A stretch of DNA of 39,777 nucleotides from contig CAYNOM010000002.1 of NCBI GenBank assembly GCA_964398415.1, positions 4,292 to 44,068 of the forward strand. The letters run 5' to 3'. The position numbers and the translations under genes are program-made. Every line of letters starts with the position of its first letter. Position 1 is the stretch's first letter. Shown piece by piece: positions 1-28,554 of the stretch. A model generated the notes under the pieces. That model did no database searches and was not told where the DNA came from. It was given only the letters and a program-made list of their open reading frames with translations. This DNA is from an uncultured Polyangiales bacterium (lineage in GTDB: Bacteria; Myxococcota_A; Polyangia; Polyangiales; DASUME01).

Positions 1-1141
1 CGCAGAAGTACCACTCGGGCTCGCACACGGTGGGCCAGGCCTCACCGCCGCCCGTGCAGGCGTACGCAATTTCCGAGCTTTGACGCTCGACGCAGTCCTG
101 CCACACCGCCATCTCGCCCGTGCAGGTCTCGATCTGCGTGGGGCAGCTACAGTCTGCGACCGACGTGGGGCCTTGGGAGCAGGCGGCATCCGTGAGCCCC
201 ACACACAGCGCGTCGCAGTCGGGCACGTTCGTCGAGTCGGGCGGCGCGCATTGGACCACCGCGAGCGAGGCATTCCAGGCGAGGCCCGGCGCGCGCCGTC
301 CTACGTGTTGGCAGGGGCGTCCGCCTACCTGGAAGCTGCCCTCGAAGTGGTCGTCGTCCGAGAAGGTGAGCGTGCCCGTGGTGCCCTCGCCGGTCACGCC
401 CAGTGTGCGATCGGTGAGCAGCGCGGTGTACATGCCCTCGGCGCCGATGCTGTAGGTGTCGCCTTCGCGCGTGATCTCCCACACGACAAAGCCGGAGGTG
501 CCTGGGCAATTGGTGTTCGAGGCCCACATGCCCGTGATGTCGCCGAGGGGCAGGGCCACGCTGCCACCGCCATCACGACCGCCCTCGCCCGTGCCCCCAT
601 CTCCGCCATCGCTGCCCCCGGCAGAAGGCGGGCGCGGCACGATCGCGTAGAAGCTGAAGTGATCGCTCTCGACCTTGGCTCTGCCGCCCTTCACCGGATC
701 GTCAGCGGTCATGACTTCGCCCCAGTCGGCGTCTTTCTCGTCATCTAGGACCACCACGGACAGCTGCTTTTCAGGCGTGTCCCGATACATGTCTGGCACG
801 GGCAAAGTGATTTCGACCGCCTTCTCGAACTTCGTGCCATGGGGCTCGAGCTTGACAGGCTTTTGCACCTCGCGACTTTCGTCGACTTGGGGCAGGTCCT
901 TGACCTTGTCGTCTGAGACCTCGGAAACCGTGATCTCGATCTCTTCCTTCAGTGCGTCCTTCGGAATCGACACGCGCACACCGGACTCGAGCGCGAGCTC
1001 AGCACCTGCAGGTCCAACCTTGGCCTTCACACTATCTCTGCCCGAGTAGACCTCGAGCTTGGGTGTGATGTCGTCGAACCAATCGCCACAGCCGGCCGAC
1101 ATGGTCAGCACAGCGCAGAGCATCACGTATGCGCGCATCAT
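1..1141 (-). CDS. Secreted lipoprotein with Cys-rich C-terminal part; 3' end lies outside the window
   Basis: The minus-strand frame is stop-free from ATG-ATG (1141/1138) to position 1, so it is absent from the ORF track. GGGGG Shine-Dalgarno at 1146-1150. N-terminus MMRAYVMLCAVLTMSAGC is a signal peptide plus lipobox. GC-rich third codon positions. Confidence 0.6.
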   Translation of the reverse strand, partial: MMRAYVMLCAVLTMSAGCGDWFDDITPKLEVYSGRDSVKAKVGPAGAELALESGVRVSIPKDALKEEIEITVSEVSDDKVKDLPQVDESREVQKPVKLEPHGTKFEKAVEITLPVPDMYRDTPEKQLSVVVLDDEKDADWGEVMTADDPVKGGRAKVESDHFSFYAIVPRPPSAGGSDGGDGGTGEGGRDGGGSVALPLGDITGMWASNTNCPGTSGFVVWEITREGDTYSIGAEGMYTALLTDRTLGVTGEGTTGTLTFSDDDHFEGSFQVGGRPCQHVGRRAPGLAWNASLAVVQCAPPDSTNVPDCDALCVGLTDAACSQGPTSVADCSCPTQIETCTGEMAVWQDCVERQSSEIAYACTGGGEAWPTVCEPEWYFC

Positions 1142-1225
1142 TTTCCCCCTCGTGCACGAGGCATTATCTCGCACTAGCGTACGTGCGCAGGACCGCGTTG
1201 AAAACCGGTGTGACGCATGCCTACA

Positions 1226-2803
1226 TCAGAGGAAGTCTCGGCCCCTGCCCGCTGCGCGTGCGACCGCCTCGAGCAAGTCTGCCGCGCGCACCGGCTTGTG
1301 CAGCACGGCGTCGTGGTGCTGCTCGATGAAGCTGCGCTGGTCTTGGCTCGCACCGCCCGAGGTCACGAAGACGATGCGATCTTTCAGATCGGGGCGCTCG
1401 GCCTCGAGCCACGCGTAGAGCTCACAGCCGTCGATCCCTGGCAGATCGACCTCGCACAGCAGCACATCGGCGTGGGAGCCCGACTCGAGCAACTCGATGG
1501 CTTCGCGACCCTCCCTGGCCACGAGCAAACGGTGCCCGCCCGACAGCACGCGCGCGTAGGCACGCAGCATGTGCGGATCTTCGTCGACGATCAGAACGCT
1601 CGGCATGCCGTGGTGTGAAGACGCGGGGATGGGCGTGCTCCTGCGCCTCACGGCATCACGCACGTCGTCCGGCCTCGCGACCGGCAAGAGGCACACGAAG
1701 GTCGCGCCCTCCTGGTACACGGATTCGACCGCCAACTCTCCGCCGATCTTGCGCAGGATCGAGCGTGAGATGGACAGACCTAGGCCCGTGCCCAGGTCCT
1801 GACGCTTGGTGGTGAAAAAGGGATCGAAGATGCGCTCGATCGATTCGGGCGCGATGCCTGGTCCGGTGTCGCTGATCGCGATGGCTACGTGCTCGTCGTC
1901 GGCGCGCGCGCTCACGCGGATGCGGTGCACGGGGCGCACAATCTCTTCGATCGCGTGGCCCGCATTGACGAGCACGTTGACGAGCACCTGCGTGATGCGA
2001 TGTCGCGGCAGGGCGAGCTTGGGCAGATGGGGTGCGTAGTCGCGCTCGAGCAGGGCCTTGCGCAGCACGTCACGGCCCGCCAGCCGCACCGCGTGATCGA
2101 TGAGCTCCGACACCTCCACGACCTCGAGCGGCTCATGCTCGTCGGTGCGGGCAAAGACCCGCAGATCGCGCACGATGGAGGCGATGGCGTCCGTGGCCGA
2201 AGAGAGATCGTCGAACAGCTGCGTGCTCGAGCGCGTGGTCTCGAGCTGCGCGACGCGCTTCAGGCGTGCGAGCGCTTCGCTCGGGGCGGCCTCGCCCGCC
2301 TCCGCGGCGCGCATCACCTCCCAGGCAGCCTCGAGTGCGGGCAGCAGGCGGGCGCGGGCGGCATCGAGCGACAGCATCACCGCGCTCAGGGGGTTGTTGA
2401 TCTCGTGGCCCACGCCCGCCACCAAAGTGCCGAGCGCAGTCAGCTTCTCAGAGTGGGCGAAGCTCTCGTAGAGCCGCTCCGTCTCGGCGCGCATGCCAGC
2501 GCGCACCCCGAGCCGGGCCACGAATGCGGCGAGCTCCGCGGGGTCGCTCGGCGACACGACGGCCGCCTCGTCTGCGCCAGCCGCGAGGGCCAAGAGCACC
2601 GTGGGTTCGTCGGGCGCCACGTAGCCGACGGGGGCGGTCGGCCACAGCGCGCGCGCCTCGGTCACCGCGGCCTGGGCGCCGCCGTCGAAGAACACCACAT
2701 GGAGACGCTTGCCGCGCGCCCAGGGCAACTCGTCCAGCACGCGAACGAGTCGCTCCCGCACGTCCGGGCTGTGGACCAGGAGCAGCGTGCGCACCTCAGA
2801 CAT
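1226..2803 (-). CDS. Hybrid sensor histidine kinase / response regulator (degenerate REC - HisKA - HATPase - REC), soluble
   Basis: H-box HEINNPLSAV. ATPase boxes NVLVNAGHA, DTGPGI, GTGLGLS. C-terminal receiver VLIVDEDP...LLCEVDLPGIDG...HKP. The N-terminal ~110 aa resembles a receiver lacking the acidic pair (LLLVHSPD). No TM helix seen. Confidence 0.9.
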   Translation of the reverse strand: MSEVRTLLLVHSPDVRERLVRVLDELPWARGKRLHVVFFDGGAQAAVTEARALWPTAPVGYVAPDEPTVLLALAAGADEAAVVSPSDPAELAAFVARLGVRAGMRAETERLYESFAHSEKLTALGTLVAGVGHEINNPLSAVMLSLDAARARLLPALEAAWEVMRAAEAGEAAPSEALARLKRVAQLETTRSSTQLFDDLSSATDAIASIVRDLRVFARTDEHEPLEVVEVSELIDHAVRLAGRDVLRKALLERDYAPHLPKLALPRHRITQVLVNVLVNAGHAIEEIVRPVHRIRVSARADDEHVAIAISDTGPGIAPESIERIFDPFFTTKRQDLGTGLGLSISRSILRKIGGELAVESVYQEGATFVCLLPVARPDDVRDAVRRRSTPIPASSHHGMPSVLIVDEDPHMLRAYARVLSGGHRLLVAREGREAIELLESGSHADVLLCEVDLPGIDGCELYAWLEAERPDLKDRIVFVTSGGASQDQRSFIEQHHDAVLHKPVRAADLLEAVARAAGRGRDFL

Positions 2804-2833
2804 CGAAGAGGTGATAGTCCTCCCCTGGCAGGC

Positions 2834-3925
2834 CTACCTCAAGGCAAATTTGCCTGTGACTTCCAAGACAGAGGCCGCACGGGTGAAGCCTGCGCCCTGG
2901 CCGTACAGTCCCACCCAAGCACCGCGCGAGAGTCGGCCGAGCGTGCGCGCACGCTCTAGGTTGATGATGGGACCACAGGCGCCCACATGTCCCGTCTCGG
3001 GGTAGGTCGTCATCGCGATCTCGCGGGCGAGGCCAAGCCGCTCGGCGATAGCTCCCGGAATGAAGCCGCGCGGCATCACGGAGGCGAGCACCGACAGGCG
3101 TGCGACATCGACTGTCGCGCACCGCGCCGCTTCGACCAGGGCTTCGGCGCCGAAGGTGACCGTCTCGCGCATCAGGGCTTTGGCGCGTTCGGGCGTGCGA
3201 CTGCCGAGGCGAAACGCGCCCCCGGCACACCACCAGGGCTTGTCGCTCTCATCGTCCATGCCGCGAATCCAGGTCACGGTGGAAGCGTGCTCGCCGTGCG
3301 TGACACCGAAGGCACCGCGCAACGTCAGCCCGTCGCCGCGTCCGAGCACGAGCGCAGTGGCCGCATCGCCGAGGCCTGGTGCGGCGGGATGCAAAAGCGG
3401 GAAGGTGCGTAGGAGCAGGTGCGACTGCGTGAGCAGCACGACGCGCGCGAGACCCGACGCAAGGTAAGCGCGTGCCACCTCGAGCTGGGCCACCGAGCTT
3501 GCGCAGCCGGCTTCGACGCCGAGCGCCATGGCGCGCGTCGCACCGATGCGCTGGGCCACCTCGCAACCCGTGGGCGGGATGATGCGCTCGGGTACCACCG
3601 CGTTCGAGAGCACGAGATCGACCTCGGCCGGATCGATGCCCGCATCGTCGAGCGCACGCAGCGCCGCGTGGGTCTCCGCCTCCGCGGCGGTCGTGGTGGC
3701 ATCTGCCACCCGACGCTCTCGGGCCCCCAGGAACGGATCGTCGGCCTCGCGGGCGAGGTCACGTGCGAGGATGCGTGCGGCCTCGGGATCGTGCGACTCG
3801 GGAATGTCGTTGAACGTGCGCTCGCCGACCTGCTCTTCGCGCCGGGTGAAGTTTTCGGGCCAGGCGTCGTTGCGTCGGATCTGAGCGGGCAGAAAACTGC
3901 CGATGCCGAGAATCGAGATGTTCAT
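2834..3925 (-). CDS. KASIII (FabH)-like thiolase-fold enzyme, atypical catalytic residues
   Basis: Starts at the internal ATG (MNISILGIGSFLP), not at the ORF start 4306. That ATG overlaps the upstream stop as ATGA (3922-3925), with GGGAGGA 6 nt upstream. Active-site Cys context GVEAGCASS. LGDAATALVL and C-terminal YGQGAGFT resemble FabH. By-eye alignment puts non-canonical residues at the FabH His/Asn positions. Confidence 0.8.
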   Translation of the reverse strand: MNISILGIGSFLPAQIRRNDAWPENFTRREEQVGERTFNDIPESHDPEAARILARDLAREADDPFLGARERRVADATTTAAEAETHAALRALDDAGIDPAEVDLVLSNAVVPERIIPPTGCEVAQRIGATRAMALGVEAGCASSVAQLEVARAYLASGLARVVLLTQSHLLLRTFPLLHPAAPGLGDAATALVLGRGDGLTLRGAFGVTHGEHASTVTWIRGMDDESDKPWWCAGGAFRLGSRTPERAKALMRETVTFGAEALVEAARCATVDVARLSVLASVMPRGFIPGAIAERLGLAREIAMTTYPETGHVGACGPIINLERARTLGRLSRGAWVGLYGQGAGFTRAASVLEVTGKFALR

Positions 3926-5751
3926 CGCGATCCTCCCTGCGTACGCAGCGACATTTGCTGCAGCGCCTCGACGCGTCCGCCACCGCGAATGCGTACGGAA
4001 GCGTCGATGCGCGCGTCGATCAGCGCGGGGCCTCCGCCGGCGAGCAGCTGATCGATGAGGGGTTTGGTGATCTGTGCGGGCCGAGATACGACCAGGCCCT
4101 GCATCCCGAGCGCACGCGCCCAGGCGGCGAAGTCGACCGGCGGAGTGTCGTAGTAGGCCGCGTGGCCGAAGAGCTGGCGCATGCCGTGGTGCACCATGTT
4201 GTAGCGACCGTCGTTGAACACCACGAACAACACCGGCAAGCGCTCGCGCACCGCCACCAGCGCCTCCATGCCGCTCATTTGCATGCAGCCGTCTCCGGTC
4301 ACGCACACCACGCGTCGCGTGGGATCGGCGATGGCGATGCCGATCGCGCTGGCGATGCCCGAGCCCATGCTGCCGAGGTTGAGCTGCATCTGAAACTGCG
4401 AGGGATCGGCCGCGGTGAGGTAGTGGAGGCAGAACAGCATGTGCTCGCCGATGTCCGTGACGAAGCGCGCGTCTGGGCCGGCGGCGCGCTGCAGATCGGA
4501 CAGCAGGCGGTGGGGGCGCACGGGGCTCGACTCATCGTGCGCGGCCTCGGGCACATCGAAGGGCGAGATGCTCTTGGCATCGCGTAGCGCGGCGCGTGCC
4601 GCGTCGTTCGTGCCGCCCTCGCGCATGAGGGTGCGCGTGAGGGCATCGACAAAGGTGCCCACCTCGGCGCGCAGGCCGAGCGTGGTGGCGAGGTTGCGAC
4701 CGAACACCGATGCGTCGAGATCGACGTGGTACAGGCGTCCGTCACGCCCGACGTAGGGCGTCATGCCCACCGAGGTGTCGTCGAGATCGGTGCCGAGGGC
4801 CACGCACACGTCGACGTGCCCCGCGGTATAGCGACGCGCCCACATCGATGCGGCCATGCCTCCGTTGCGCAGCGAGCGTGGATGTCGCTCGCTGACGAGG
4901 CCCTTTGCGCGTGGTGTCGTGACGAAGGGCAGATCTGCGGCGTCGACCAAGGCGCGCAGCTTTGCTTCGTGTCCACGGCAGCCGGCGCCGATCACGAGCA
5001 GCGGCCTCACGGCATCGAGCAGCGCGCGCGCCACGACCTCGATGCGCTCGGCGTCGACTTGGATGTCGACGTACAGCCGCGCGGTGCTGACCTCGAGGGG
5101 TGCGCACTCGGCCATGGCGTGATCGAGCGGCAGCACGAACAGGGCTGGCCCGGGGTGGAGCTCGTCGGTGGCGACGTCGAGTGCTGCGAGCGCTTGGCTG
5201 ACCACGCTACGCGGGTGTGCGGAGCGCACCTGAACACGCGTGATCGAGGCGTAGAGGGATTCGGCGGCCAGGCCCTCGGGGCCTGAATCTTGCGCCATGC
5301 GCCCGCCGCTCGAGGCCCACGCCACGTCGCCCGCAATGATCAGCATCGGCGTGCGCTCGAGGCTCGCCGAGGCGACGCCCGTCACTGCGTTGGTGATGCC
5401 GGGTCCGGCCGTGACCACCACGCACGGCACCCGACCGTTTGTGCGGTGGTAGGCTGTGGCCGCGAAGGCCGCGTGGCTCTCGTGGCGCGACTCGATCAAG
5501 CGCGCGTCGGGATGCAGGCGGATGGCTTCGAACACGGGGCAGATGGGGCCACCGGGGATGCCGAAGAACGTGTCGATGCCACGCTGCACGAGGGCTTCGA
5601 TCAGGTGTCGTGCTGCCGCCTGCGGTGAGAGGCGTGAGCGCTCGGTGTCCGCGTGTGCGCGGGGAGTGAGCTCTCGGATGTGGGAGTCGCGTGCTGTCGC
5701 GCTGCGCTCGAGTGGGTCGAGCGGTGCGACGTCGCATTCGTGGCTGGCCAT
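3922..5751 (-). CDS. Thiamine diphosphate-dependent enzyme, acetolactate synthase large-subunit-like
   Basis: N-terminal Pyr domain ALVQRGIDTFFGIPGGPICPVFEAI. ThDP-binding motif GDGCMQMSGMEAL...VVFNDGRYN. Start is uncertain: ATG 5751 (MASHECD) preferred, ORF start 5853 possible. Confidence 0.85.
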   Translation of the reverse strand: MASHECDVAPLDPLERSATARDSHIRELTPRAHADTERSRLSPQAAARHLIEALVQRGIDTFFGIPGGPICPVFEAIRLHPDARLIESRHESHAAFAATAYHRTNGRVPCVVVTAGPGITNAVTGVASASLERTPMLIIAGDVAWASSGGRMAQDSGPEGLAAESLYASITRVQVRSAHPRSVVSQALAALDVATDELHPGPALFVLPLDHAMAECAPLEVSTARLYVDIQVDAERIEVVARALLDAVRPLLVIGAGCRGHEAKLRALVDAADLPFVTTPRAKGLVSERHPRSLRNGGMAASMWARRYTAGHVDVCVALGTDLDDTSVGMTPYVGRDGRLYHVDLDASVFGRNLATTLGLRAEVGTFVDALTRTLMREGGTNDAARAALRDAKSISPFDVPEAAHDESSPVRPHRLLSDLQRAAGPDARFVTDIGEHMLFCLHYLTAADPSQFQMQLNLGSMGSGIASAIGIAIADPTRRVVCVTGDGCMQMSGMEALVAVRERLPVLFVVFNDGRYNMVHHGMRQLFGHAAYYDTPPVDFAAWARALGMQGLVVSRPAQITKPLIDQLLAGGGPALIDARIDASVRIRGGGRVEALQQMSLRTQGGSR

Positions 5752-5897
5752 GCGTTTCCTACTGCAAAGATGTAAGCGGAGTCGTGCGAGCGCGGTGCGC
5801 TGCGCAACGACGCGCCGGCCCTGAGCAGCTTTCGTGCCGACCTTCGAGTGCAAGCGGGCTTACGTGCAGGCGCGCTTTGCAGAGCTTGTGCGCCTCA

Positions 5898-5928
5898 GGC
5901 TCTCTTCAGATCTGAAAGATCGAGAGCC
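5898..5928. terminator. Stem-loop downstream of the DUF2378-like gene
   Basis: ggctctc (5898-5904) pairs with gagagcc (5922-5928). The 17-nt loop contains the perfect palindrome tcagatctga (5906-5915). It lies 22 nt beyond the minus-strand stop at 5950. No U-tract. Confidence 0.2.
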
Positions 5929-5949
5929 GGGTGCGCAAGGCGGTGCTGT

Positions 5950-6690
5950 TCACCAATGAAGCAGGTGGCGCCCACGGAAGCGATCTTCGAGGATCGCTTG
6001 GGCTTCGACACGCATGCCGATGGCCTCGAACGTGCCCGTCGCTGCGCCGAGCAGATGCGATTCGATGTAGAAGTACTCTTCCGTCATCGTCACGACCGCG
6101 CTGCGCTCGCCAGGGAACTCGAGGTCCCAATGACCGAAGCTGTAGCTCTGCCGTCTGCCCGCTGCGCCCTGTTGGAGCAGCCGCTTCGGATCGTGAGACA
6201 GAAACCGCAACAACGTGCGGCCCAGGATGCTCTCCGCGAACGCCACCGCGTTGCGCCGGCCGATCTCGAACATGCCGTCGTGCACGCGCTCTGGCCCCAA
6301 CAAGAGCCCGCCCGCAATCGCGAGCCGCACCAAGTACTCGCTCGCGGGCTGCCAGGCGATGGCGCTGACGCGCTCAGGAAACAGATGTCGATAGGGCTCG
6401 ACGCGGCCTTCTCGGGTCAGAACGGCCTCGATGCTGCGAAAGTATAACCCCCGCACCTTGGCCGACGGCGGCACGAGTGGCAGCCGCTCGGTGAGATCAC
6501 AGTAGCGGCTCACCTCTTCGATCGCGCGTGTCCGTTCCACCCTCTGCACGGCGGAACGATAGCCGAATGTGTGACGGAGTGCCTTGGTTGGGCGGCGAAA
6601 GCCAGAGCGGCGAGCGTACTCAGCGTGGCGCAGCTCACTGAAACGCGACTCTATGCGGCGTAGGGACTTGATCCCGCGGCGAGGGGACAC
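5950..6690 (-). CDS. DUF2378 / TIGR02265 (Myxococcus paralogous family)-like protein
   Basis: C-terminal ~190 aa (VRGLYFRSIEAVL...YLVRLAIAGG...GRRNAVAFAESILGRTLL...HLLGAATGTFEAIG) resembles the myxobacterial DUF2378 family from memory. Good GC3. The true start is probably downstream of 6690 (non-ATG), because only 31 bp separate it from the divergent AraC gene. Confidence 0.55.
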   Translation of the reverse strand: MSPRRGIKSLRRIESRFSELRHAEYARRSGFRRPTKALRHTFGYRSAVQRVERTRAIEEVSRYCDLTERLPLVPPSAKVRGLYFRSIEAVLTREGRVEPYRHLFPERVSAIAWQPASEYLVRLAIAGGLLLGPERVHDGMFEIGRRNAVAFAESILGRTLLRFLSHDPKRLLQQGAAGRRQSYSFGHWDLEFPGERSAVVTMTEEYFYIESHLLGAATGTFEAIGMRVEAQAILEDRFRGRHLLHW

Positions 6691-6721
6691 GTAGCGTCAA
6701 GACAGCCTGCCCCAGACACTC

Positions 6722-7711
6722 ATGCGCGTCTCCACCGCCTTTCTGCGAACGTTTCAGGGCATCCTGCGCGAGCTCGGCGTGCAGGAGAGCGCGCTCTTGC
6801 CACTGCCCACCGCTGCCGATTCGATGGGCTGGGATGAGTGTCAGAAGCGCCTCGCGTTCACGCTGCGCCACGCGGAGGAGCCGGCGCTCGGGTTACGCGT
6901 GGGCGAGCGCATCAGCGTGTCTGCGCTCCACGTCGTCGGACATCTCATGCGAGCTGGCACCACCTTGCGCGAGGCGACGGGCCAGTTCTCGCGCTTTGCA
7001 CCGCTCGTGTGGGCGGGTGCGGCGTTCGTGCTGCGCGAGCAGGGCGACGAGGCCGCGTTCGGTTTTCGTCCGCCGAGCATCGATCGTGCAGGAGAGCGCT
7101 TCTGCACTGAGGCTGCGCTCACCGCCATCGTGCACGTCATCACGGCCACCCACCCATCGGGACGCGCCCCCCTACGCGTCGAGCTCGCCTACCCTCCACC
7201 CGACCATGATGCCGAGTATCCTCGAGCCTTCGGCTGTCCTGTGGTGTTCGACTGCGAGTGGAGCTGTGTCGTGTTTCCGCGCACGATGCTCGATGAGCGC
7301 CGCCACATGGCGGGCGACCCGCTCAAGCTGCGCTTGTTCGAGCGTGCGGAGCGTTTGCTTGCGACCAAGGAGCGCGGGCGCGATCTCGTGCTGCGCGTGA
7401 GCGAGGCCCTGCGCTCGGCCAGCCTCGGGCGCTTCGACGCAGAGAGCGTCGCGCGCACACTTGGGATGAGCCCGCGCGTGTTACGTCACAAGCTGCGCGA
7501 GCGCGGCACGTCCTTCGCAGGGCTCGTCGACGATGCGCGTCGCGAGATCGCCTGCGAGGCCCTGCGCTGCAATAGCTTGGACATCAAGGAGATTAGCGGT
7601 CGACTCGGCTTCTCCGAGCCTCGGGCATTTCACCGGGCCTTTCGGCGCTGGACGGGCACGACGCCGGCCCGCTTTCGCGCCGCCCACGGCATGTCGGCGT
7701 CTGGCGCATGA
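6722..7711 (+). CDS. AraC family transcriptional regulator
   Basis: C-terminal double HTH with signature LGFSEPRAFHRAFRRWTGTTPARFR. N-terminal AraC-type ligand/dimerisation-like domain. Confidence 0.9.
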   Translation: MRVSTAFLRTFQGILRELGVQESALLPLPTAADSMGWDECQKRLAFTLRHAEEPALGLRVGERISVSALHVVGHLMRAGTTLREATGQFSRFAPLVWAGAAFVLREQGDEAAFGFRPPSIDRAGERFCTEAALTAIVHVITATHPSGRAPLRVELAYPPPDHDAEYPRAFGCPVVFDCEWSCVVFPRTMLDERRHMAGDPLKLRLFERAERLLATKERGRDLVLRVSEALRSASLGRFDAESVARTLGMSPRVLRHKLRERGTSFAGLVDDARREIACEALRCNSLDIKEISGRLGFSEPRAFHRAFRRWTGTTPARFRAAHGMSASGA

Positions 7712-18071: not shown

Positions 18072-18259
18072 GGTCACGCCCTTTCGTGGCCCGCACGGGA
18101 CGGGCATTGTCTGTAATACAACCTATGCACCATGACGCGATGCGCAATGGGGCACACCCGTCTTTCTTGGCGTGAGGGGGCGGCCTGCCCGCATTTGTCC
18201 CGCTTTCCGCGGCCTGGAAATGATGTTAGTGAGTAATCACTACAGTTGTGGAGGATCCG

Positions 18260-19717
18260 ATGCTCGTGCAATCCCGCTCTGCGGTGTCCGCGCCCACCGT
18301 CGCCTCGCTCGCGGGGACGCGCGCGACCACGCCCGATGCCAGCATCTGGGAGAACTGTCGCGAGGTGGACGTCCCGCTCACCGACATCGAGGGCACGCTG
18401 CCCCCCGATCTCGTGGGCCGACTGTTGCGCAATGGCCCGGCCAAGCGCGACCTCGGCTCGTGCTTCTGGGATGGCGACGCCATGGTGCGCGAGCTGAGCT
18501 TTCAGGCCGGCGGCAAGGCTCGCTACCGTGGCCGCTACATCGAGACCGAGAAGTACTTGGCGGAGAAGCACGCGACGCGGCCCCTGTTTCGCACCGCGGG
18601 CACCCAGCGGCCGGGCGGCATCCTGAGCAACGCCTTTCGCATCCCGGTGAGCGAGCCCAACACGCACCTCTTGCCGTTTGCCGGCAAGTTGCTCGCGCTC
18701 CACGAGGGCGGACATCCCGTCGCGCTCGATCCCGTCACGCTCGCCACGCACGGGCCCTTTCACTTCGACGGCAAGCTCTCGCGGCTCGTCACCTTTGCGG
18801 CCCATCCGCATCGCGATCCGGAGACCTTCGACGTGTTCAACTTTGGTGTGCGCGGTGCTGGTCTGGGGGGGCCTGCCGTGATCGGCTATCGCCTCACGCC
18901 CCAGGGTCGGCTCGTGACGATTGGCGAGCTGCCCCTGCCTTCGATCACGTTCATGCACGACTTCGCCGTCACGCAGAACTGGCTCGTGTTCTTCGTGCCC
19001 CCCGTGTCGTTCAGCATGGCGCGCATGCTGCTTGGCGTCGGCCCGGTGTTCGACGCGTTTCGCTGGCAGAAGGGGCGCGCTGCCCAGGTGCTGATGTTGT
19101 CGAAGGATGGCACGCAGACGCGGCGCTTCGAGATCGAGCCCATGATCCTCGGCCACGTGTCGGCGACGCGCGAGCGGGGGGATGAGGTGGTGGTCGACTT
19201 CGTGCGCGGGCCGACCTGGGACAAGATCGGCAAGGGTCTGTACTCGTACCAAACCGATGGCTTCGATTTCACGGAAGACATGTGCCAGTGGCGCATGCGC
19301 TTCGACACGCGTACCAAGCGCGTGCAGAGCGAGGAGCTCTGTGCGCTGCCCGGCGACTTTCCGCGCGGCAACGAGACGCGCGCGCTGCACGCGAGGCGCT
19401 TCGCTTACCTCGCTGCCAATCCGGCGCCTTCCATGTGTGGTTTCTTTCGCGGCACGCTCAAGCTCGATCTCGACACGGGGCGCGACGAGCTCTTCGACTT
19501 CGGGCAGGGCGCGGTCACCCATGAGCCCATCTTCGTGCCGGCCCGAGGTGCGAGCAGCGAAGATCATGGTTACCTCGTGCAGCTCGTGCACAACAGCGCG
19601 CGGCGCGCGACCGATTGCGTGGTGTTTGATGCCCGTCGCGTCAGCGATGGCCCGGTGTGCACACTGCGTCTGCCGGTCAGCGCTGGCATGACCTTCCATG
19701 GCACCTGGATGGCCTGA
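18260..19717 (+). CDS. Carotenoid oxygenase family (carotenoid/apocarotenoid cleavage dioxygenase, RPE65-like)
   Basis: GGAGGA SD before ATG 18260. Four conserved His contexts (FAAHPH, FMHDFAVT, LGHVSAT, FHGTW). LRNGPA and HEPIFVP motifs. Confidence 0.9.
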   Translation: MLVQSRSAVSAPTVASLAGTRATTPDASIWENCREVDVPLTDIEGTLPPDLVGRLLRNGPAKRDLGSCFWDGDAMVRELSFQAGGKARYRGRYIETEKYLAEKHATRPLFRTAGTQRPGGILSNAFRIPVSEPNTHLLPFAGKLLALHEGGHPVALDPVTLATHGPFHFDGKLSRLVTFAAHPHRDPETFDVFNFGVRGAGLGGPAVIGYRLTPQGRLVTIGELPLPSITFMHDFAVTQNWLVFFVPPVSFSMARMLLGVGPVFDAFRWQKGRAAQVLMLSKDGTQTRRFEIEPMILGHVSATRERGDEVVVDFVRGPTWDKIGKGLYSYQTDGFDFTEDMCQWRMRFDTRTKRVQSEELCALPGDFPRGNETRALHARRFAYLAANPAPSMCGFFRGTLKLDLDTGRDELFDFGQGAVTHEPIFVPARGASSEDHGYLVQLVHNSARRATDCVVFDARRVSDGPVCTLRLPVSAGMTFHGTWMA

Positions 19718-25098: not shown

Positions 25099-25698
25099 AT
25101 GGCTCGGCGCGGGAGTAAGCTGCGGCCCTTGCTTGCCGAGGACTCCGTGGGCGCGCACGTCTACCCATTGCCGTTCGATGACACCGAGCACGCCGAGTTG
25201 CAGCGCGCCCTGGGGTGTCGATCCGTGGATGCTTTGCTCGGGTTCATGACCGCGCTCGTGAGCTTGCCCGAGGTGATCCCCACGGGAGCCTGGCTCGGCG
25301 AGCTGCTCAAGGACGCAGACCTCTCCGATGGGCCGCACATCGAGCGCGTCGCTTCGCACCTCGCGCGGCTCAACAACTTGATCGCGAGCGCGCTGAGCTT
25401 CTCCGAGATCGAGCGCTTCTGTCCGGCTGCGAGCGATGAGCCAGCCTGTCGTGCTTGGGCCCAGGGCTATCTCGACGTCATCGATCAGATCGACCTCGAG
25501 GGTGAGAGTGATGAGGTCCACGAGGACGTGGTGGCGCTGTCGTCGGTGGCGTTGCGCGTCGACGACGCGTTGCTCGCGCCCGAGCTCGAGGGCATGACGC
25601 CCGAGGCCTATCGTGCGGCGAGTCGCAAGGAGCTCGCGGCCATCGCCGCAGAGCTGCACCAGACGTGGCACAAGCGGCGCGCCGGACGGCGTCGCTAA
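25099..25698 (+). CDS. UPF0149 (YecA/YgfB N-terminal-like) family protein
   Basis: Pattern LLGFMTALVSLPEVIPTGAWLGELL...CRAWAQGYL resembles UPF0149 from memory. Coding-like GC3. Confidence 0.6.
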   Translation: MARRGSKLRPLLAEDSVGAHVYPLPFDDTEHAELQRALGCRSVDALLGFMTALVSLPEVIPTGAWLGELLKDADLSDGPHIERVASHLARLNNLIASALSFSEIERFCPAASDEPACRAWAQGYLDVIDQIDLEGESDEVHEDVVALSSVALRVDDALLAPELEGMTPEAYRAASRKELAAIAAELHQTWHKRRAGRRR

Positions 25699-25768
25699 AT
25701 CCGCTTCGTGCTTGGTTGGCGCGAGATCCCTCGATAAGGTGATCCGAGGGACAGGGCCAAGGGGGACG

Positions 25769-27061
25769 ATGGTGGCAGAGCGAGCCGACGAGGAGCTGTT
25801 GCCGGGACGGGCGGCAGAGCCCGATCGCTTCGAATTCCGGGGCGAGATCGCCTGCGGGGGCATGGGCAGCATCTACGACGTCGTCGATCGCACCTTGCGT
25901 CGCCGCCTGGCCATGAAGGTGCTGCATCCGCTGATGGCGGGCAGCGCCACCGAGCTCAACACCTTCGTGCGCGAGGCGCGACGCACGGCCAAGCTCGAGC
26001 ACCCGAGCATCGTGCCCGTGCACGACCTCTTCGCCGATCAGGCGAGCGAGAGCGCTTCGTTCGTGATGAAGTTCGTCGAGGGCGAGACCCTCTCGGCGTG
26101 GATTCAGCGCGAAGGGACGGCCGGCGGGATCCGCGGGCGCACGCTGGAGCGCGCGCTGCAGATCATCACCAAGGTGTGTGATGCCGTCGAGTTCGCCCAC
26201 AGTCGCGAGGTCTTGCACCTCGATTTGAAGCCCGACAACGTGATGATCGGCGAGCACGGCGAGGTGTACCTGATGGATTGGGGCATCTCCGTCGACTGCG
26301 AGCGCAACGCCGAAGGGCGGCTCGTGCCCCGCCTCGAGCGGCCCGGGGCGCGCGGCACACTCAGCCACATGGCGCCCGAGCAGCTCGACATGCTGCTGGC
26401 GCGCGTCGATGAGCGCGCCGACATCTACGGCCTCGGCGGGCTGCTCTACGAGGTGCTCACGGGTCGGGCGCCGTTCGTGCCCACTGGAGCTCCCGAAGAC
26501 CTCTTGCGTCTGCGCGAGCATCGGGTGCCGGCGCCCGAGGACGTGGCTCCGAGCCACGCCCTGCCGCCCGGCCTCGTGGCCATCGCCATGCGCTGTCTCG
26601 CCTTCGAGCGCGACGCGCGCTACCCGAGCGTGGGCGCGCTCAAGGTCGACCTCGAGAGCTTTCTGCGCGGCGGTGGCTGGTTTCAGACGAAGGCCTTCGC
26701 CGCCTCGGAAGACTTGGTGCGGGAGGGAGAGAAGGGCGACGCCGCCTACATTCTCGTCGAGGGCGAGTGCGACATCATCAAGGGCCACGGCGAGCACGCG
26801 CGCGTGGTGGGGCGCATCGGAGCGGGCGAAATCACCGGCGAGACCGCCTTGCTCGCGACAGGCACTCGCACCGCAACCGTGCGTGCGGTGACTTTCGTGC
26901 GGGTGCTCGTGGTGACGCGCGAGACGCTGGAGCGCGAGCTCGAGGGGCGCGGCTGGCTCGAAACCCTGGTACGCGCCCTGGCGCGCCGCTTCGCCGAGGC
27001 AGACAACGAGCGCACGAACCTGCGCGAGCAGCTCAGGCAACGTGGCTCGATCCCAGGCTAG
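25769..27061 (+). CDS. Ser/Thr protein kinase fused to a C-terminal cyclic-nucleotide-binding domain
   Basis: Internal ATG 25769 after AAGGGGGA. GGMGSIYDV, AMKVL, HLDLKPDNVMI, MDWGIS, HMAPEQ. The C-terminal cNMP-like region reads FAASEDLVREGEKGDAAYILVEGEC...GEITGETALL...RTATVRA. Confidence 0.9.
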   Translation: MVAERADEELLPGRAAEPDRFEFRGEIACGGMGSIYDVVDRTLRRRLAMKVLHPLMAGSATELNTFVREARRTAKLEHPSIVPVHDLFADQASESASFVMKFVEGETLSAWIQREGTAGGIRGRTLERALQIITKVCDAVEFAHSREVLHLDLKPDNVMIGEHGEVYLMDWGISVDCERNAEGRLVPRLERPGARGTLSHMAPEQLDMLLARVDERADIYGLGGLLYEVLTGRAPFVPTGAPEDLLRLREHRVPAPEDVAPSHALPPGLVAIAMRCLAFERDARYPSVGALKVDLESFLRGGGWFQTKAFAASEDLVREGEKGDAAYILVEGECDIIKGHGEHARVVGRIGAGEITGETALLATGTRTATVRAVTFVRVLVVTRETLERELEGRGWLETLVRALARRFAEADNERTNLREQLRQRGSIPG

Positions 27062-27433: not shown

Positions 27434-28105
27434 TCACGGGGGCGGTGCGACAGACGCGGTCGGGCAGACGGAGTTTCGCGCGCATCGCGCGTGCTCGAAC
27501 AGCGCCTCGAACACCGAGCGCACGTCTTCGAAGGCCCGCACAGCGCCCTGCCGCGCGCTCTCCCGCAGGGGCATGGCGTCTAGTCTCTGATCGAGCTCGT
27601 GACGAAAGCGCTGAAAGCGAGCCATGGTCTCCTTACCGTGTCCCCTGAAGTAGCGCGTGCTCCCGTCATCGAGCGCGAGACGAGCCGAGATCATGGGATA
27701 GAGCATGGCTGAGCCCAGTGCCGAGCCTTCGAGCACGTAGAGCCGACCGAGCAGGCTGGCCTCATCGAGCAGGCTCGTGTCTACGGTGCAGGCGCGGGCG
27801 ATCGCGGCGCGGAGCGACCTCGGCAGGCTGTGGGTGGCGCATCCGAGCGCCGCAAGATCCTGGTCCGCGAGCGCACTCTTGCGGGGCGTGCTGAGCAGAT
27901 GGGAGAGGCCCTTGGCTTCGAGCGCCCACTCGAGGTGACGATGGAGCTCCGCGTAGGCGCACAAGAGCTCGGCGTAGCTCGTGCGCGAGATCTCGCCCTT
28001 CGCGAGCAGCTCGGCGAACGCCGTCGACTCGGTCTGCTTGTGCTCGACCTGGGTCACCGCCTTGAGCCAAAGCGAGGCCTGCGGGATCAATGGGTGGAGT
28101 TCCAT
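27434..28105 (-). CDS. Heme oxygenase family protein (last gene of the operon)
   Basis: Internal ATG 28105 (MELHPLIPQ). LKAVTQVEHKQTESTAF matches the proximal-His helix (HO-1 LKEATKEVHTQAENAEF, from memory). LYVLEGSALGS matches the bacterial HO distal-helix motif YVLEGS.LGG. 223 aa. Confidence 0.75.
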   Translation of the reverse strand: MELHPLIPQASLWLKAVTQVEHKQTESTAFAELLAKGEISRTSYAELLCAYAELHRHLEWALEAKGLSHLLSTPRKSALADQDLAALGCATHSLPRSLRAAIARACTVDTSLLDEASLLGRLYVLEGSALGSAMLYPMISARLALDDGSTRYFRGHGKETMARFQRFRHELDQRLDAMPLRESARQGAVRAFEDVRSVFEALFEHARCARNSVCPTASVAPPP

Positions 28106-28554
28106 CTGCGAAGCTCCTCGATGAAGGCGTGAAGGTAAGGCTCGAAGGCGTAGGTGTCGGCCTCGTTCAACACCTCGGCCATGGCCTCGCGCAGGGTCTC
28201 GAAGCTCGACACGAGCGCGGCTGGCTCGATCAGTTGGCACAGCTGCTCGGCGACCCATTCGGCGTGGGCCTCCACGAAGTGCGTGAGGTCGGCCCGCACG
28301 TGCGCGAGCGCCACGCGCCTGAGCATGTGGCGCAGCTCTTCGATCCCCTCGGCACGGCCACCGTGAAGACGTCTCACGTCACCGAGGCGCTCGAGCGCGC
28401 GCACGTAGATGCGCTCTTCGGCAGCTTGCATGCGGCGCGCGGCAGACAGACGTTGGCCCATACCGGTTGCATACTCGCGTAACGCGTCGACCTCCTGGTC
28501 GCTCAAGAAGCGCCCCTCGGCGTTGACGATCATCGATCTGAGCTCGGTGTTCAT
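28087..28554 (-). CDS. Phycobiliprotein-like (phycobilisome protein family, globin fold) protein A
   Basis: ATG 28554 overlaps the kinase stop as ATGA. MNTELRSMIVNAEGRFLSDQEVDAL...RLSAARRMQAAEERI aligns by eye with phycocyanin/allophycocyanin N-termini (..AD.QGRFLS..EL...). C-terminal YLHAFIEEL resembles YIDYAINAL. 155 aa. Confidence 0.6.
   Translation of the reverse strand: MNTELRSMIVNAEGRFLSDQEVDALREYATGMGQRLSAARRMQAAEERIYVRALERLGDVRRLHGGRAEGIEELRHMLRRVALAHVRADLTHFVEAHAEWVAEQLCQLIEPAALVSSFETLREAMAEVLNEADTYAFEPYLHAFIEELRRWNSTH

What the first reader, a model, noticed from the sequence alone, without database searches (positions are those of the whole stretch)
2834..5751. Translationally coupled ThDP-dependent carboligase-like enzyme and atypical KASIII-like enzyme: possible small-molecule (signal?) biosynthesis pair
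Seen: an acetolactate-synthase-like ThDP enzyme (GDG...NDGRYN motif) ends in an ATGA overlap (3922-3925) with a FabH-like gene. The FabH-like protein retains the nucleophilic Cys (GVEAGCASS). By-eye alignment to E. coli FabH (sequence recalled from memory) shows VLASVMPRG where FabH has LVPHQANLR. It shows TGHVGACG where FabH has HGNTSAAS. The canonical His-Asn of the Cys-His-Asn triad therefore appears to be replaced. Established: ThDP carboligases form acyloins (alpha-hydroxyketones). KASIII-like enzymes with altered triads act as acyltransferases or head-to-head condensing enzymes and make bacterial signals such as photopyrones and dialkylresorcinols. Inference: the pair may build an alpha-hydroxyketone or pyrone-like metabolite. 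No ACP, PKS or NRPS gene is nearby.
Basis: partly seen in the sequence, partly recalled or inferred. Interest (0 to 1): 0.6.

Follow-up and report, generated by a model that had tools for sequence, protein, structure and literature searches.

The report
Myxobacterial furanolide-like synthase and sensor-kinase cassette
Two translationally coupled enzymes, related to the pair that builds furanolide (butenolide) lactones but with a rebuilt active site, belong to a four-gene cassette with an H-NOX-shaped protein and a soluble kinase that is conserved in dozens of uncultured myxobacteria, so the cassette probably makes an unknown small molecule and is tied to signalling.

Summary
On the minus strand, a ThDP enzyme (3922-5751) overlaps a KASIII-like gene (2834-3925) by ATGA. 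The KASIII-like protein keeps Cys141, but FabH His244 is Val283 and FabH Asn274 is His313.

The pair is not an isolated oddity. The ThDP gene lies directly upstream of the KASIII-like gene in 50 of 52 related loci. In 39 of 44 loci with enough flank the pair travels with a DUF2378 protein and a soluble histidine kinase, in four gene orders. All 61 loci come from uncultured Polyangia-type MAGs.

The DUF2378 protein folds like an H-NOX sensor (Z 15) but shows no heme-binding signature. [quoted passage not shown]

The closest known logic is CybE/CybF (furanolide biosynthesis); carbazole CqsB3/CqsB1 comes second. A sister clade with Cys-Asn-Asn sits in the same cassette. A third clade sits in a different two-component cassette.

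Best reading: the pair makes an acylated acyloin or butenolide-type molecule that is functionally coupled to the DUF2378-kinase module, probably as its signal. No product, ligand or binding has been shown. The scan met this cassette before in another genome (e1-2445895). It is a new variant of a known kind.

The parts
5950..6549 (-). DUF2378 protein with an H-NOX-like fold, the putative ligand sensor. The start is uncertain: the ORF is open up to 6690, while orthologues are 195-230 aa.
   Evidence: Pfam DUF2378, E 6.5e-13. AF2 model has pLDDT 95.2. Foldseek's top 45 hits are H-NOX domains, TM 0.6-0.67. VIA Z 15.0, rmsd 2.6 over 162 residues, to S. oneidensis H-NOX 4u99. Present in 40 of 44 related loci.
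5752..5949 (-). 198-nt intergenic region upstream of the ThDP gene. It holds a sigma54-like GG-N10-GC element (CGGCACGAAAGCTGCT, about 5824-5839), 88 nt before the ATG.
   Evidence: Sequence; motif scan. The motif is not conserved across loci (3 of 53 at the same score, background 2.7%), so it is only a lead.
3922..5751 (-). ThDP-dependent alpha-hydroxy-beta-keto acid (acyloin) synthase-like enzyme, 609 aa. Glu91 is the cofactor-activating Glu; the ThDP motif is residues 486-515 (nt 4207-4296).
   Evidence: Pfam TPP_N/M/C. Below every NCBIfam acetolactate-synthase cut-off. Best solved relatives are CsmA (E 1.7e-71) and BbmA (1e-62), ahead of E. coli AHAS I (6e-57).
2834..3925 (-). KASIII-fold enzyme, 363 aa, with Cys141 (nt 3503-3505), Val283 in place of the catalytic His (nt 3077-3079) and His313 in place of the catalytic Asn (nt 2987-2989). 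Clade-specific invariants are Ser168-His169, His179-Pro180 and Pro285-Arg286.
   Evidence: AF2 model has pLDDT 84.6 and its top Foldseek hits are FabH, TM 0.75/0.86.
3922..3925 (-). ATGA stop/start overlap that couples translation of the ThDP and KASIII-like genes.
   Evidence: The same 4-nt overlap occurs in 31 of 56 related loci, and 54 of 56 have a gap between -10 and +30 nt.
1226..2803 (-). Soluble histidine kinase, 525 aa. It has an about 100-aa N-terminal domain of no known family (conserved GADE motif), then HisKA (His133), HATPase, and a C-terminal receiver-like domain with Glu451 at the phospho-acceptor position.
   Evidence: Pfam. No Pfam hit for residues 1-125. Alignment A4. Coordinates. 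Present in 39 of 44 related loci.

Best explanation
Window 1226-6549 (minus strand) is one copy of a conserved four-gene cassette of uncultured Polyangia-type myxobacteria. The proposed steps are below.

1. [quoted passage not shown] The family assignment is shown; the substrates are unknown.
2. The translationally coupled KASIII-fold enzyme takes an acyl group from an acyl-thioester onto Cys141 and transfers it to that unstable intermediate. It lacks the His/Asn pair that drives decarboxylative Claisen condensation, so O-acylation followed by ring closure is the more likely route. That route would give a butenolide/furanolide-like lactone, as CybF does, or simply an acylated acyloin. This step is inferred.
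3. The product is functionally tied to the other two genes. The H-NOX-fold DUF2378 protein shows no heme-ligand signature. It most likely binds the metabolite and modulates the sensor-less soluble kinase, as H-NOX proteins modulate their partner kinases. The cassette would then be a make-and-sense signalling module. This step is inferred from gene linkage and fold only.
For: Pair linkage:
- The ThDP gene lies directly upstream of the KASIII-like gene in 50 of 52 loci.
- A 4-nt or 1-nt overlap occurs in 43 of 56 loci.

Cassette linkage:
- All four genes are present in 39 of 44 loci with enough flank.
- They occur in four gene orders with unrelated flanking genes, which argues for selection on linkage.
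- The sister KASIII clade (Cys-Asn/Ala-Asn) sits in the same DUF2378-ThDP-KAS-kinase order.
- A third clade (Cys-His-Asn/Ser/Thr) sits between a receiver gene and a hybrid kinase of about 1000 aa.
- ThDP-KASIII pairs in this class are therefore repeatedly embedded in two-component cassettes.

Enzymes:
- CsmA and BbmA are the best solved relatives of the ThDP enzyme. [quoted passage not shown]
- A relative's locus inserts a Glu/Leu/Phe/Val dehydrogenase, which makes 2-oxo acids, between the two genes.
- The KASIII fold and Cys141 are kept, while His244 is Val and Asn274 is His.

Sensor and kinase:
- The DUF2378 model matches H-NOX with Z 15.
- The kinase has no recognisable sensor domain.

Published precedent:
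- CybE plus CybF build the furanolide core. Homologous pairs exist in the myxobacteria Plesiocystis and Enhygromyxa (PMC8777810, PMC12395478).
- The furanolides nostoclide N1/N2 are cell-density-dependent chemical mediators in Nostoc (PMC9324945).
Against: - No product, substrate, ligand or protein contact has been observed.
- I could not obtain a CybF or CybE sequence, so homology to them rests on shared architecture, literature descriptions and unchecked earlier notes.
- The window holds no aryl-CoA supply genes (ammonia-lyase, CoA ligase) of the kind furanolide clusters carry.
- The catalytic make-up (Cys-Val-His) differs from that reported for CybF-type enzymes, so the chemistry may differ.
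- Gene linkage fits equally well with the kinase regulating production rather than sensing the product.
- The cassette has no DNA-binding output.
- Four clade members have the enzyme pair without DUF2378 or kinase nearby.
- I had no model coordinates, so the positions of His169, His179 and His313 relative to Cys141 are unverified.
Confidence: 0.5

Rival explanations
1. Regulated secondary metabolite. The pair makes a bioactive (antibiotic or algicidal-type) furanolide or acyloin. DUF2378 and the kinase sense some other cue, possibly a gas or redox signal through a cofactor in the H-NOX-like pocket, and only control production. The product is not their ligand.
For: Furanolides are described mainly as antibiotic, cytotoxic or algicidal compounds (PMC12395478). 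H-NOX proteins classically sense NO/O2 next to kinases, and the fold match is strong. Some relatives of the KASIII-like gene lie in BGC-like contexts with an NRPS condensation domain and a Trp halogenase.
Against: The canonical proximal His and the YxSxR heme motif are not matched in the DUF2378 family, although that alignment is weak. The cassette carries no transcription factor. There are no tailoring, export or resistance genes conserved around it; flanks differ between loci.
Confidence: 0.25
2. Carbazole-type chemistry. [quoted passage not shown] The product is an open-chain alpha-hydroxy-diketone or rearranged ester, not a lactone.
For: The same two-enzyme logic is documented for CqsB3/CqsB1 (PMC7466098). 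An earlier scan note on the same cassette in another genome chose this as its closest known system.
Against: CqsB1 is thought to use the normal KASIII decarboxylative mechanism (PMC7466098). Here the His of that machinery is Val and the Asn is His. No ACP and no carbazole-synthase (CqsB2/NzsI-type) gene was found among the ORFs scanned.
Confidence: 0.15
3. Ordinary primary metabolism. The genes are an acetolactate synthase for branched-chain amino acids and a FabH that starts fatty-acid synthesis, and they happen to be adjacent.
For: Automatic annotation of relatives calls them 3-oxoacyl-ACP synthase III. The ThDP enzyme hits acetolactate-synthase models at E 1e-74.
Against: Both proteins score far below every curated equivalog cut-off: 249 vs 509 bits and 94 vs 249 bits. 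The Cys-His-Asn triad is absent. The genome has three canonical FabH-type genes elsewhere. The family is confined to Polyangia-type MAGs and is always linked to the ThDP gene.
Confidence: 0.03

Closest known systems
CybE/CybF of furanolide biosynthesis (cyanobacterin; nostoclide and maculalactone clusters; proposed (deoxy)enhygrolide pairs of the myxobacteria Plesiocystis pacifica and Enhygromyxa salina)
   Same: [quoted passage not shown] The catalytic His of FabH is missing; for CybF this rests on earlier scan notes that I did not check. Furanolides have a documented mediator role in Nostoc (PMC9324945).
   Different: The active site here is Cys-Val-His, not the Cys-Asn-Asn reported for CybF-type enzymes. 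There are no ammonia-lyase, CoA-ligase or tailoring genes. The pair is fixed in a cassette with DUF2378 and a kinase, which the furanolide papers I read do not describe. I could not make a direct sequence comparison to CybE or CybF.
CqsB3/CqsB1 (NzsH/NzsJ) of bacterial carbazole biosynthesis
   Same: [quoted passage not shown]
   Different: The carbazole system needs an ACP and the cyclase CqsB2/NzsI, and its KASIII-like enzyme keeps the catalytic residues. Here no ACP or cyclase was found and the His/Asn pair is replaced.
CsmA and BbmA (PDB 8x3z, 8x3x), ThDP-dependent alpha-hydroxy-beta-keto acid synthases
   Same: They are the best solved relatives of the ThDP enzyme, aligned over residues 46-597. 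The cofactor-activating Glu and the GDG...N(D/N)G motif are conserved.
   Different: They score only 216-245 bits. The window's protein has a 45-residue N-terminal extension, and its substrates are unknown.
H-NOX sensor with partner histidine kinase (for example the Shewanella/Vibrio H-NOX-kinase pairs; recalled from my own knowledge)
   Same: A stand-alone protein of about 190 aa with the H-NOX fold is encoded next to a kinase that has no sensor domain of its own.
   Different: There is no significant sequence similarity to H-NOX (hhalign probability 1%). The heme-ligating His and YxSxR are not matched. The family is DUF2378, whose function is unknown.
FabH (KAS III) of type II fatty-acid synthesis
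   Same: The thiolase/KASIII fold (TM 0.75-0.87), the nucleophilic Cys and the C-terminal glycine-rich loop.
   Different: His244 is Val and Asn274 is His. There is an N-terminal insertion of about 40 residues with its own conserved motifs (N19, W22, D63-P64-F65). The context is not a fatty-acid one.

Membership tests
FabH / KAS III (fatty-acid initiation) | Cys-His-Asn catalytic triad | tested here: not met
   Cys141 is kept. The His position is Val283 and the Asn position is His313, both in HMMER alignments to solved FabH and in an MSA with the genome's own FabH genes. The change is conserved in 58 members.
FabH / KAS III (fatty-acid initiation) | Score above the curated NCBIfam cut-off | tested here: not met
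   Best score is 93.9 bits against a cut-off of 249 (NF006829); TIGR00747 gives 81 against 292.
FabH / KAS III (fatty-acid initiation) | KASIII fold | tested here: met
   AF2 model pLDDT 84.6. Top Foldseek hits are FabH, E 8e-30, TM 0.75/0.85.
CybF-type furanolide synthase | KASIII-like protein encoded next to a CybE-type ThDP enzyme | tested here: met
   ATGA overlap in the window. The ThDP gene is directly upstream in 50 of 52 loci. The architecture is as described in PMC8777810.
CybF-type furanolide synthase | Sequence similarity to CybF itself | not testable with these tools
   No CybF sequence could be fetched: the alignments in PMC8777810 are images and the original paper is not held. 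The only lead is an Atlas neighbour cluster of 379 aa, commonest in Cyanobacteriota.
CybF-type furanolide synthase | Cys-Asn-Asn active-site signature (as stated in earlier scan notes, unchecked) | tested here: not met
   The window's clade has Cys-Val-His. The sister clade has Cys-Asn/Ala-Asn. The signature itself comes from notes e1-3741064 and e1-2694374.
CybF-type furanolide synthase | Acyl-CoA supply genes (ammonia-lyase, CoA ligase) in the cluster | tested here: not met
   None among the 30 ORFs of the window scanned with Pfam. The flanks of related loci also lack them.
[quoted passage not shown] | Three ThDP-enzyme domains, cofactor-activating Glu and ThDP-binding motif | tested here: met
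   Pfam TPP_N/M/C. Glu91 aligns with the Glu of CsmA and BbmA. GDG-X24-NDG spans residues 486-515.
[quoted passage not shown] | Closer to characterised members than to acetolactate synthases | tested here: met
   CsmA 244.6 bits and BbmA 215.8 bits, against 196.6 bits for the best AHAS. All acetolactate-synthase equivalog cut-offs are missed.
[quoted passage not shown] | [quoted passage not shown] | not testable with these tools
   This needs an enzyme assay.
H-NOX (heme-NO/O2 binding) sensors | H-NOX fold | tested here: met
   VIA Z 15.0, 13.9 and 13.3 to three H-NOX proteins over 162-164 residues. Foldseek's top 45 hits are all H-NOX.
H-NOX (heme-NO/O2 binding) sensors | Proximal heme-ligating His and the YxSxR motif | tested here: inconclusive
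   Profile comparison with eight canonical H-NOX proteins of the same class is insignificant (probability 1.2%). In its register the His falls on Leu/Gln and YxSxR is not matched. There is no conserved His in model helix 121-135. I had no residue-level structural alignment.
Hybrid histidine kinase | HisKA with phospho-acceptor His, HATPase boxes, and a receiver with phospho-acceptor Asp | tested here: not met
   His133 and the N/G boxes are invariant. The receiver column four residues before the conserved Pro is Glu451 in the window and in most orthologues, and Asp in four of them. The mapping to CheY Asp57 is from my own knowledge.

The most novel reading that the evidence does not exclude
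The cassette is a self-contained butenolide/furanolide-type signalling circuit. In it a non-heme H-NOX-fold protein (DUF2378) is the receptor for the lactone made by the neighbouring enzymes and gates a soluble kinase. That would give DUF2378 its first function, provide the first receptor for furanolide-class mediators, and show an H-NOX scaffold re-used for an organic ligand. Sister cassettes, including a third architecture with a 1000-aa hybrid kinase, would make this a whole family of myxobacterial chemical languages.
Probability: 0.3. Interest if true: 0.8.

Novelty: new variant of a known kind. Interest (0 to 1): 0.62.

Why it matters
Furanolides such as the nostoclides act as cell-density-dependent mediators in cyanobacteria. 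The paper that shows this (PMC9324945) names no receptor. Here a related enzyme pair is linked, across dozens of species and several gene orders, to a ligand-sensor-shaped protein and a kinase.

That linkage gives a concrete and cheap hypothesis to test: which protein senses this class of lactones, and what DUF2378 does. It also marks a KASIII clade with a Cys-Val-His active site whose chemistry is unknown. All carriers found are uncultured MAGs, which may be why nobody has described the cassette.

Tried and rejected
- Complex prediction with the kinase (residues 1-390, two copies) and DUF2378 scored 0.20 against a mark of 0.32. That is no verdict, and I do not count it either way.
- The sigma54-type promoter upstream of the ThDP gene is present in the window, but it is not enriched across 53 loci.
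- The sigma70 promoter and terminator scan of 900-6900 found nothing above shuffles.
- The AraC regulator (6722-7711) and the ZU5 protein (2-1174) next to the cassette are not conserved near it elsewhere, so I excluded them from the unit.
- The other six DUF2378 paralogues of the genome showed no kinase or ThDP match within 1.5 kb.
- tblastn of the KASIII-like protein against plasmids gave no match.
- Attempts to obtain CybF/CybE sequences or the original cyanobacterin paper failed.
- Two literature searches for BbmA and xenocyloin were uninformative. The xenocyloin XclA/XclB/XclC parallel is therefore only my recollection.
- I could not inspect the active site in three dimensions because model coordinates are not exposed.
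Full report
**What is in the sequence**

The window has 65-70% G+C. The finding's two genes lie on the minus strand.

- P0001 (window 3922-5751, 609 aa) has the three ThDP-enzyme domains and the motif GDG-X24-NDGRYN at residues 486-515.
- P0002 (window 2834-3925, 363 aa) matches the two KASIII Pfam domains only weakly.
- The stop of the first gene and the start of the second share ATGA.
- Both proteins score far below every curated NCBIfam cut-off: 249 vs 509 bits for acetolactate synthase and 94 vs 249 bits for KAS III.

**The active site of the KASIII-like protein**

- HMMER alignments to solved FabH chains put 'svmprg' under 'phqanl' and 'ghvgac' under 'gntsaa'.
- I repeated the test with the three canonical FabH-type genes of the same genome in one MAFFT alignment. 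The register is the same: FabH His244 corresponds to Val283 and FabH Asn274 to His313, while Cys141 is kept.
- Across 58 full-length members these residues are at least 97% conserved: Cys141, Ser168-His169, His179-Pro180, Asp187, Arg221, Pro285-Arg286, His313 and the C-terminal Y-x-QGAGF-x-R loop.
- The AF2 model (pLDDT 84.6) has the FabH fold.
- I had no coordinates, so I could not check where the clade-specific histidines sit relative to Cys141.

**Relatives and co-occurrence**

- The word-index search found more than 120 proteins at 57-76% identity, nearly all metagenomic.
- A scan of one genome per species found 61 loci. Every record is a MAG labelled Polyangiaceae, Sandaracinaceae, Polyangiales, Myxococcales or similar.
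- A script over these loci gave the following counts:
  - The ThDP gene lies within 200 nt upstream of the KASIII-like gene in 50 of 52 loci.
  - The 4-nt overlap occurs in 31 of 56 loci and a 1-nt overlap in 12 more.
  - A DUF2378 gene and a soluble kinase are present in 39 of 44 loci that have enough flanking DNA.
- The four genes occur in four orders:

| Order (D = DUF2378, T = ThDP, K = KASIII-like, H = kinase) | Loci |
|---|---|
| D>T>K>H> | 19 |
| T>K><H<D | 12 |
| T>K>H><D | 6 |
| T>K>D>H> | 2 |

- Genes outside the four differ from locus to locus. The window's AraC and ZU5 neighbours are not conserved.
- Linkage that survives rearrangement is good evidence that the four genes work together.

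**The other two genes**

*DUF2378 protein*
- The model is very confident (pLDDT 95.2).
- It matches H-NOX domains over its whole core: Foldseek's top 45 hits, and VIA Z 15.0, rmsd 2.6 over 162 residues to 4u99.
- The next matches are other ligand-binding members of that fold class: TRAPP Bet3, V4R, and the sensor domains of PoxR/DmpR and VirS.
- A profile comparison with eight canonical H-NOX proteins from the same bacterial class was insignificant. In its register neither the proximal His nor YxSxR is matched.
- I read this as probably not a heme protein, with low certainty.
- The only open papers that mention DUF2378 are one transcriptome study and its preprint.

*Kinase*
- It has an invariant His133 and invariant ATP-binding boxes, and an N-terminal domain of about 100 residues with no Pfam match.
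- Its C-terminal receiver-like domain carries Glu451 in the column that holds the phospho-acceptor Asp. Four orthologues have Asp there.

**The wider family**

- An exhaustive profile-free search found full-length relatives down to about 26% identity.
- In 301 genomes sampled from the same class, 75 had a hit at E 1e-15 or better. Most of those hits are full-length.
- Motifs and a quick maximum-likelihood tree separate three clades:

| Clade | Active-site positions | Support (SH-aLRT) |
|---|---|---|
| a | Cys-His-Asn/Ser/Thr | 97 |
| b | Cys-Asn/Ala-Asn | 99 |
| c (the window's) | Cys-Val-His, on a long stem | 100 |

- Clades b and c are sisters, with SH-aLRT 82.
- I searched larger fetched regions with HMMs built from my own alignments.
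  - Clade b sits in the same D>T>K>H> cassette. One of its DUF2378 genes matches the window's family at 99.6% probability.
  - Clade a sits in a different two-component setting: receiver, ThDP, KAS, a hybrid kinase of about 1000 aa, then a receiver-HATPase protein.
- Two relatives differ in context:
  - One locus has a Glu/Leu/Phe/Val dehydrogenase between the pair.
  - Another has an NRPS condensation domain and a Trp halogenase beside the KASIII-like gene.

**Comparison with what is known**

- *ThDP enzyme.* Its best solved relatives are CsmA and BbmA. [quoted passage not shown]
- *Two-enzyme systems.* Two described systems join such an enzyme to a KASIII-like one.
  - Furanolides: CybE makes the acid. 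CybF, annotated as 3-oxoacyl-ACP synthase, O-acylates it with an aryl-CoA and closes the lactone. Homologous pairs are reported in the myxobacteria Plesiocystis pacifica and Enhygromyxa salina (PMC8777810, PMC12395478, PMC13288894).
  - Carbazoles: CqsB1/NzsJ performs a decarboxylative condensation with an acyl-ACP, and the cyclase CqsB2 follows (PMC7466098).
- *Which system fits.* The window has no ACP, cyclase, ammonia-lyase or CoA ligase among the ORFs scanned. The enzyme lacks the His/Asn pair used for decarboxylative condensation. Acyl transfer followed by ring closure is therefore the better guess.
- *The Cys-Asn-Asn signature.* Earlier notes of this scan say that CybF-type enzymes carry Cys-Asn-Asn. 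I could not check that on CybF itself. It does match my clade b, which would make the window's clade a derived sister of the CybF type.
- *Signalling precedent.* The furanolides nostoclide N1/N2 are cell-density-dependent chemical mediators in Nostoc punctiforme (PMC9324945). The word 'receptor' does not occur in that paper.

**Verdict**

The new points are these:
- The unit is four genes, not two.
- The pair has a Cys-Val-His active site that I did not find described in the papers I read.
- An H-NOX-fold DUF2378 protein and a sensor-less kinase are its constant partners.

Everything about product and sensing is inference. An earlier agent reached a similar reading of this cassette in another genome (e1-2445895).

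Noticed in passing
window 1451-1453 (Glu451 of the kinase, gene 1226-2803 minus strand): The C-terminal receiver-like domain of the kinase has Glu, not Asp, at the phospho-acceptor column in the window and in most orthologues. Four orthologues (L043, L044, L052, L054) have Asp. It may be a phosphomimetic pseudo-receiver.
   Followed up: partly
window about 5824-5839, minus strand: A sigma54-like element, CGGCACGAAAGCTGCT (GG-N10-GC), lies 88 nt upstream of the ThDP start codon. Several orthologous loci have GGCA(C/T)...TGC at 30-120 nt, but the motif is not statistically enriched.
   Followed up: partly
L135, L137, L138, L139, L140, L071 (other Polyangia genomes): A second, DUF2378-free cassette: a stand-alone receiver, a ThDP enzyme, a KASIII-like enzyme with Cys-His-Asn/Ser/Thr, a hybrid kinase of about 1000 aa, and a receiver-HATPase protein. 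It recurs in at least three family-level groups.
   Followed up: partly
L073:2492-3736: A Glu/Leu/Phe/Val dehydrogenase gene sits between the ThDP and KASIII-like genes of a clade-c relative. This hints that the 2-oxo acid substrate comes from an amino acid.
   Followed up: no
L112:1-3830: A 376-aa relative of the KASIII-like protein lies between an NRPS condensation-domain gene and a tryptophan-halogenase gene. This is a natural-product context unlike the signalling cassettes.
   Followed up: no
window 6722-7711 (+): An AraC-type regulator with an Arabinose_bd sensor domain lies divergent from the DUF2378 gene. AraC-family sensor domains (VirS, CdpR) also appear among the structural neighbours of the DUF2378 model. 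The regulator is not conserved beside the cassette in other loci.
   Followed up: partly
G000 contigs C379, C629, C408, C930, C20, C52 (loci L115-L119, L121): The genome has six further DUF2378 paralogues. The cassette's copy is among the weakest matches to the Pfam model (49 bits; five paralogues score 60-75, one 24). The others showed no kinase or ThDP gene within 1.5 kb.
   Followed up: partly
window 2-1174 (-), 18248-19717 (+), 27434-28258 (-), 25613-27061 (+): Other notable genes: a ZU5-domain protein just downstream of the kinase, an RPE65-type carotenoid oxygenase, a heme oxygenase, and a Ser/Thr kinase fused to a cyclic-nucleotide-binding domain. The window also holds two more Ser/Thr kinases.
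   Followed up: no
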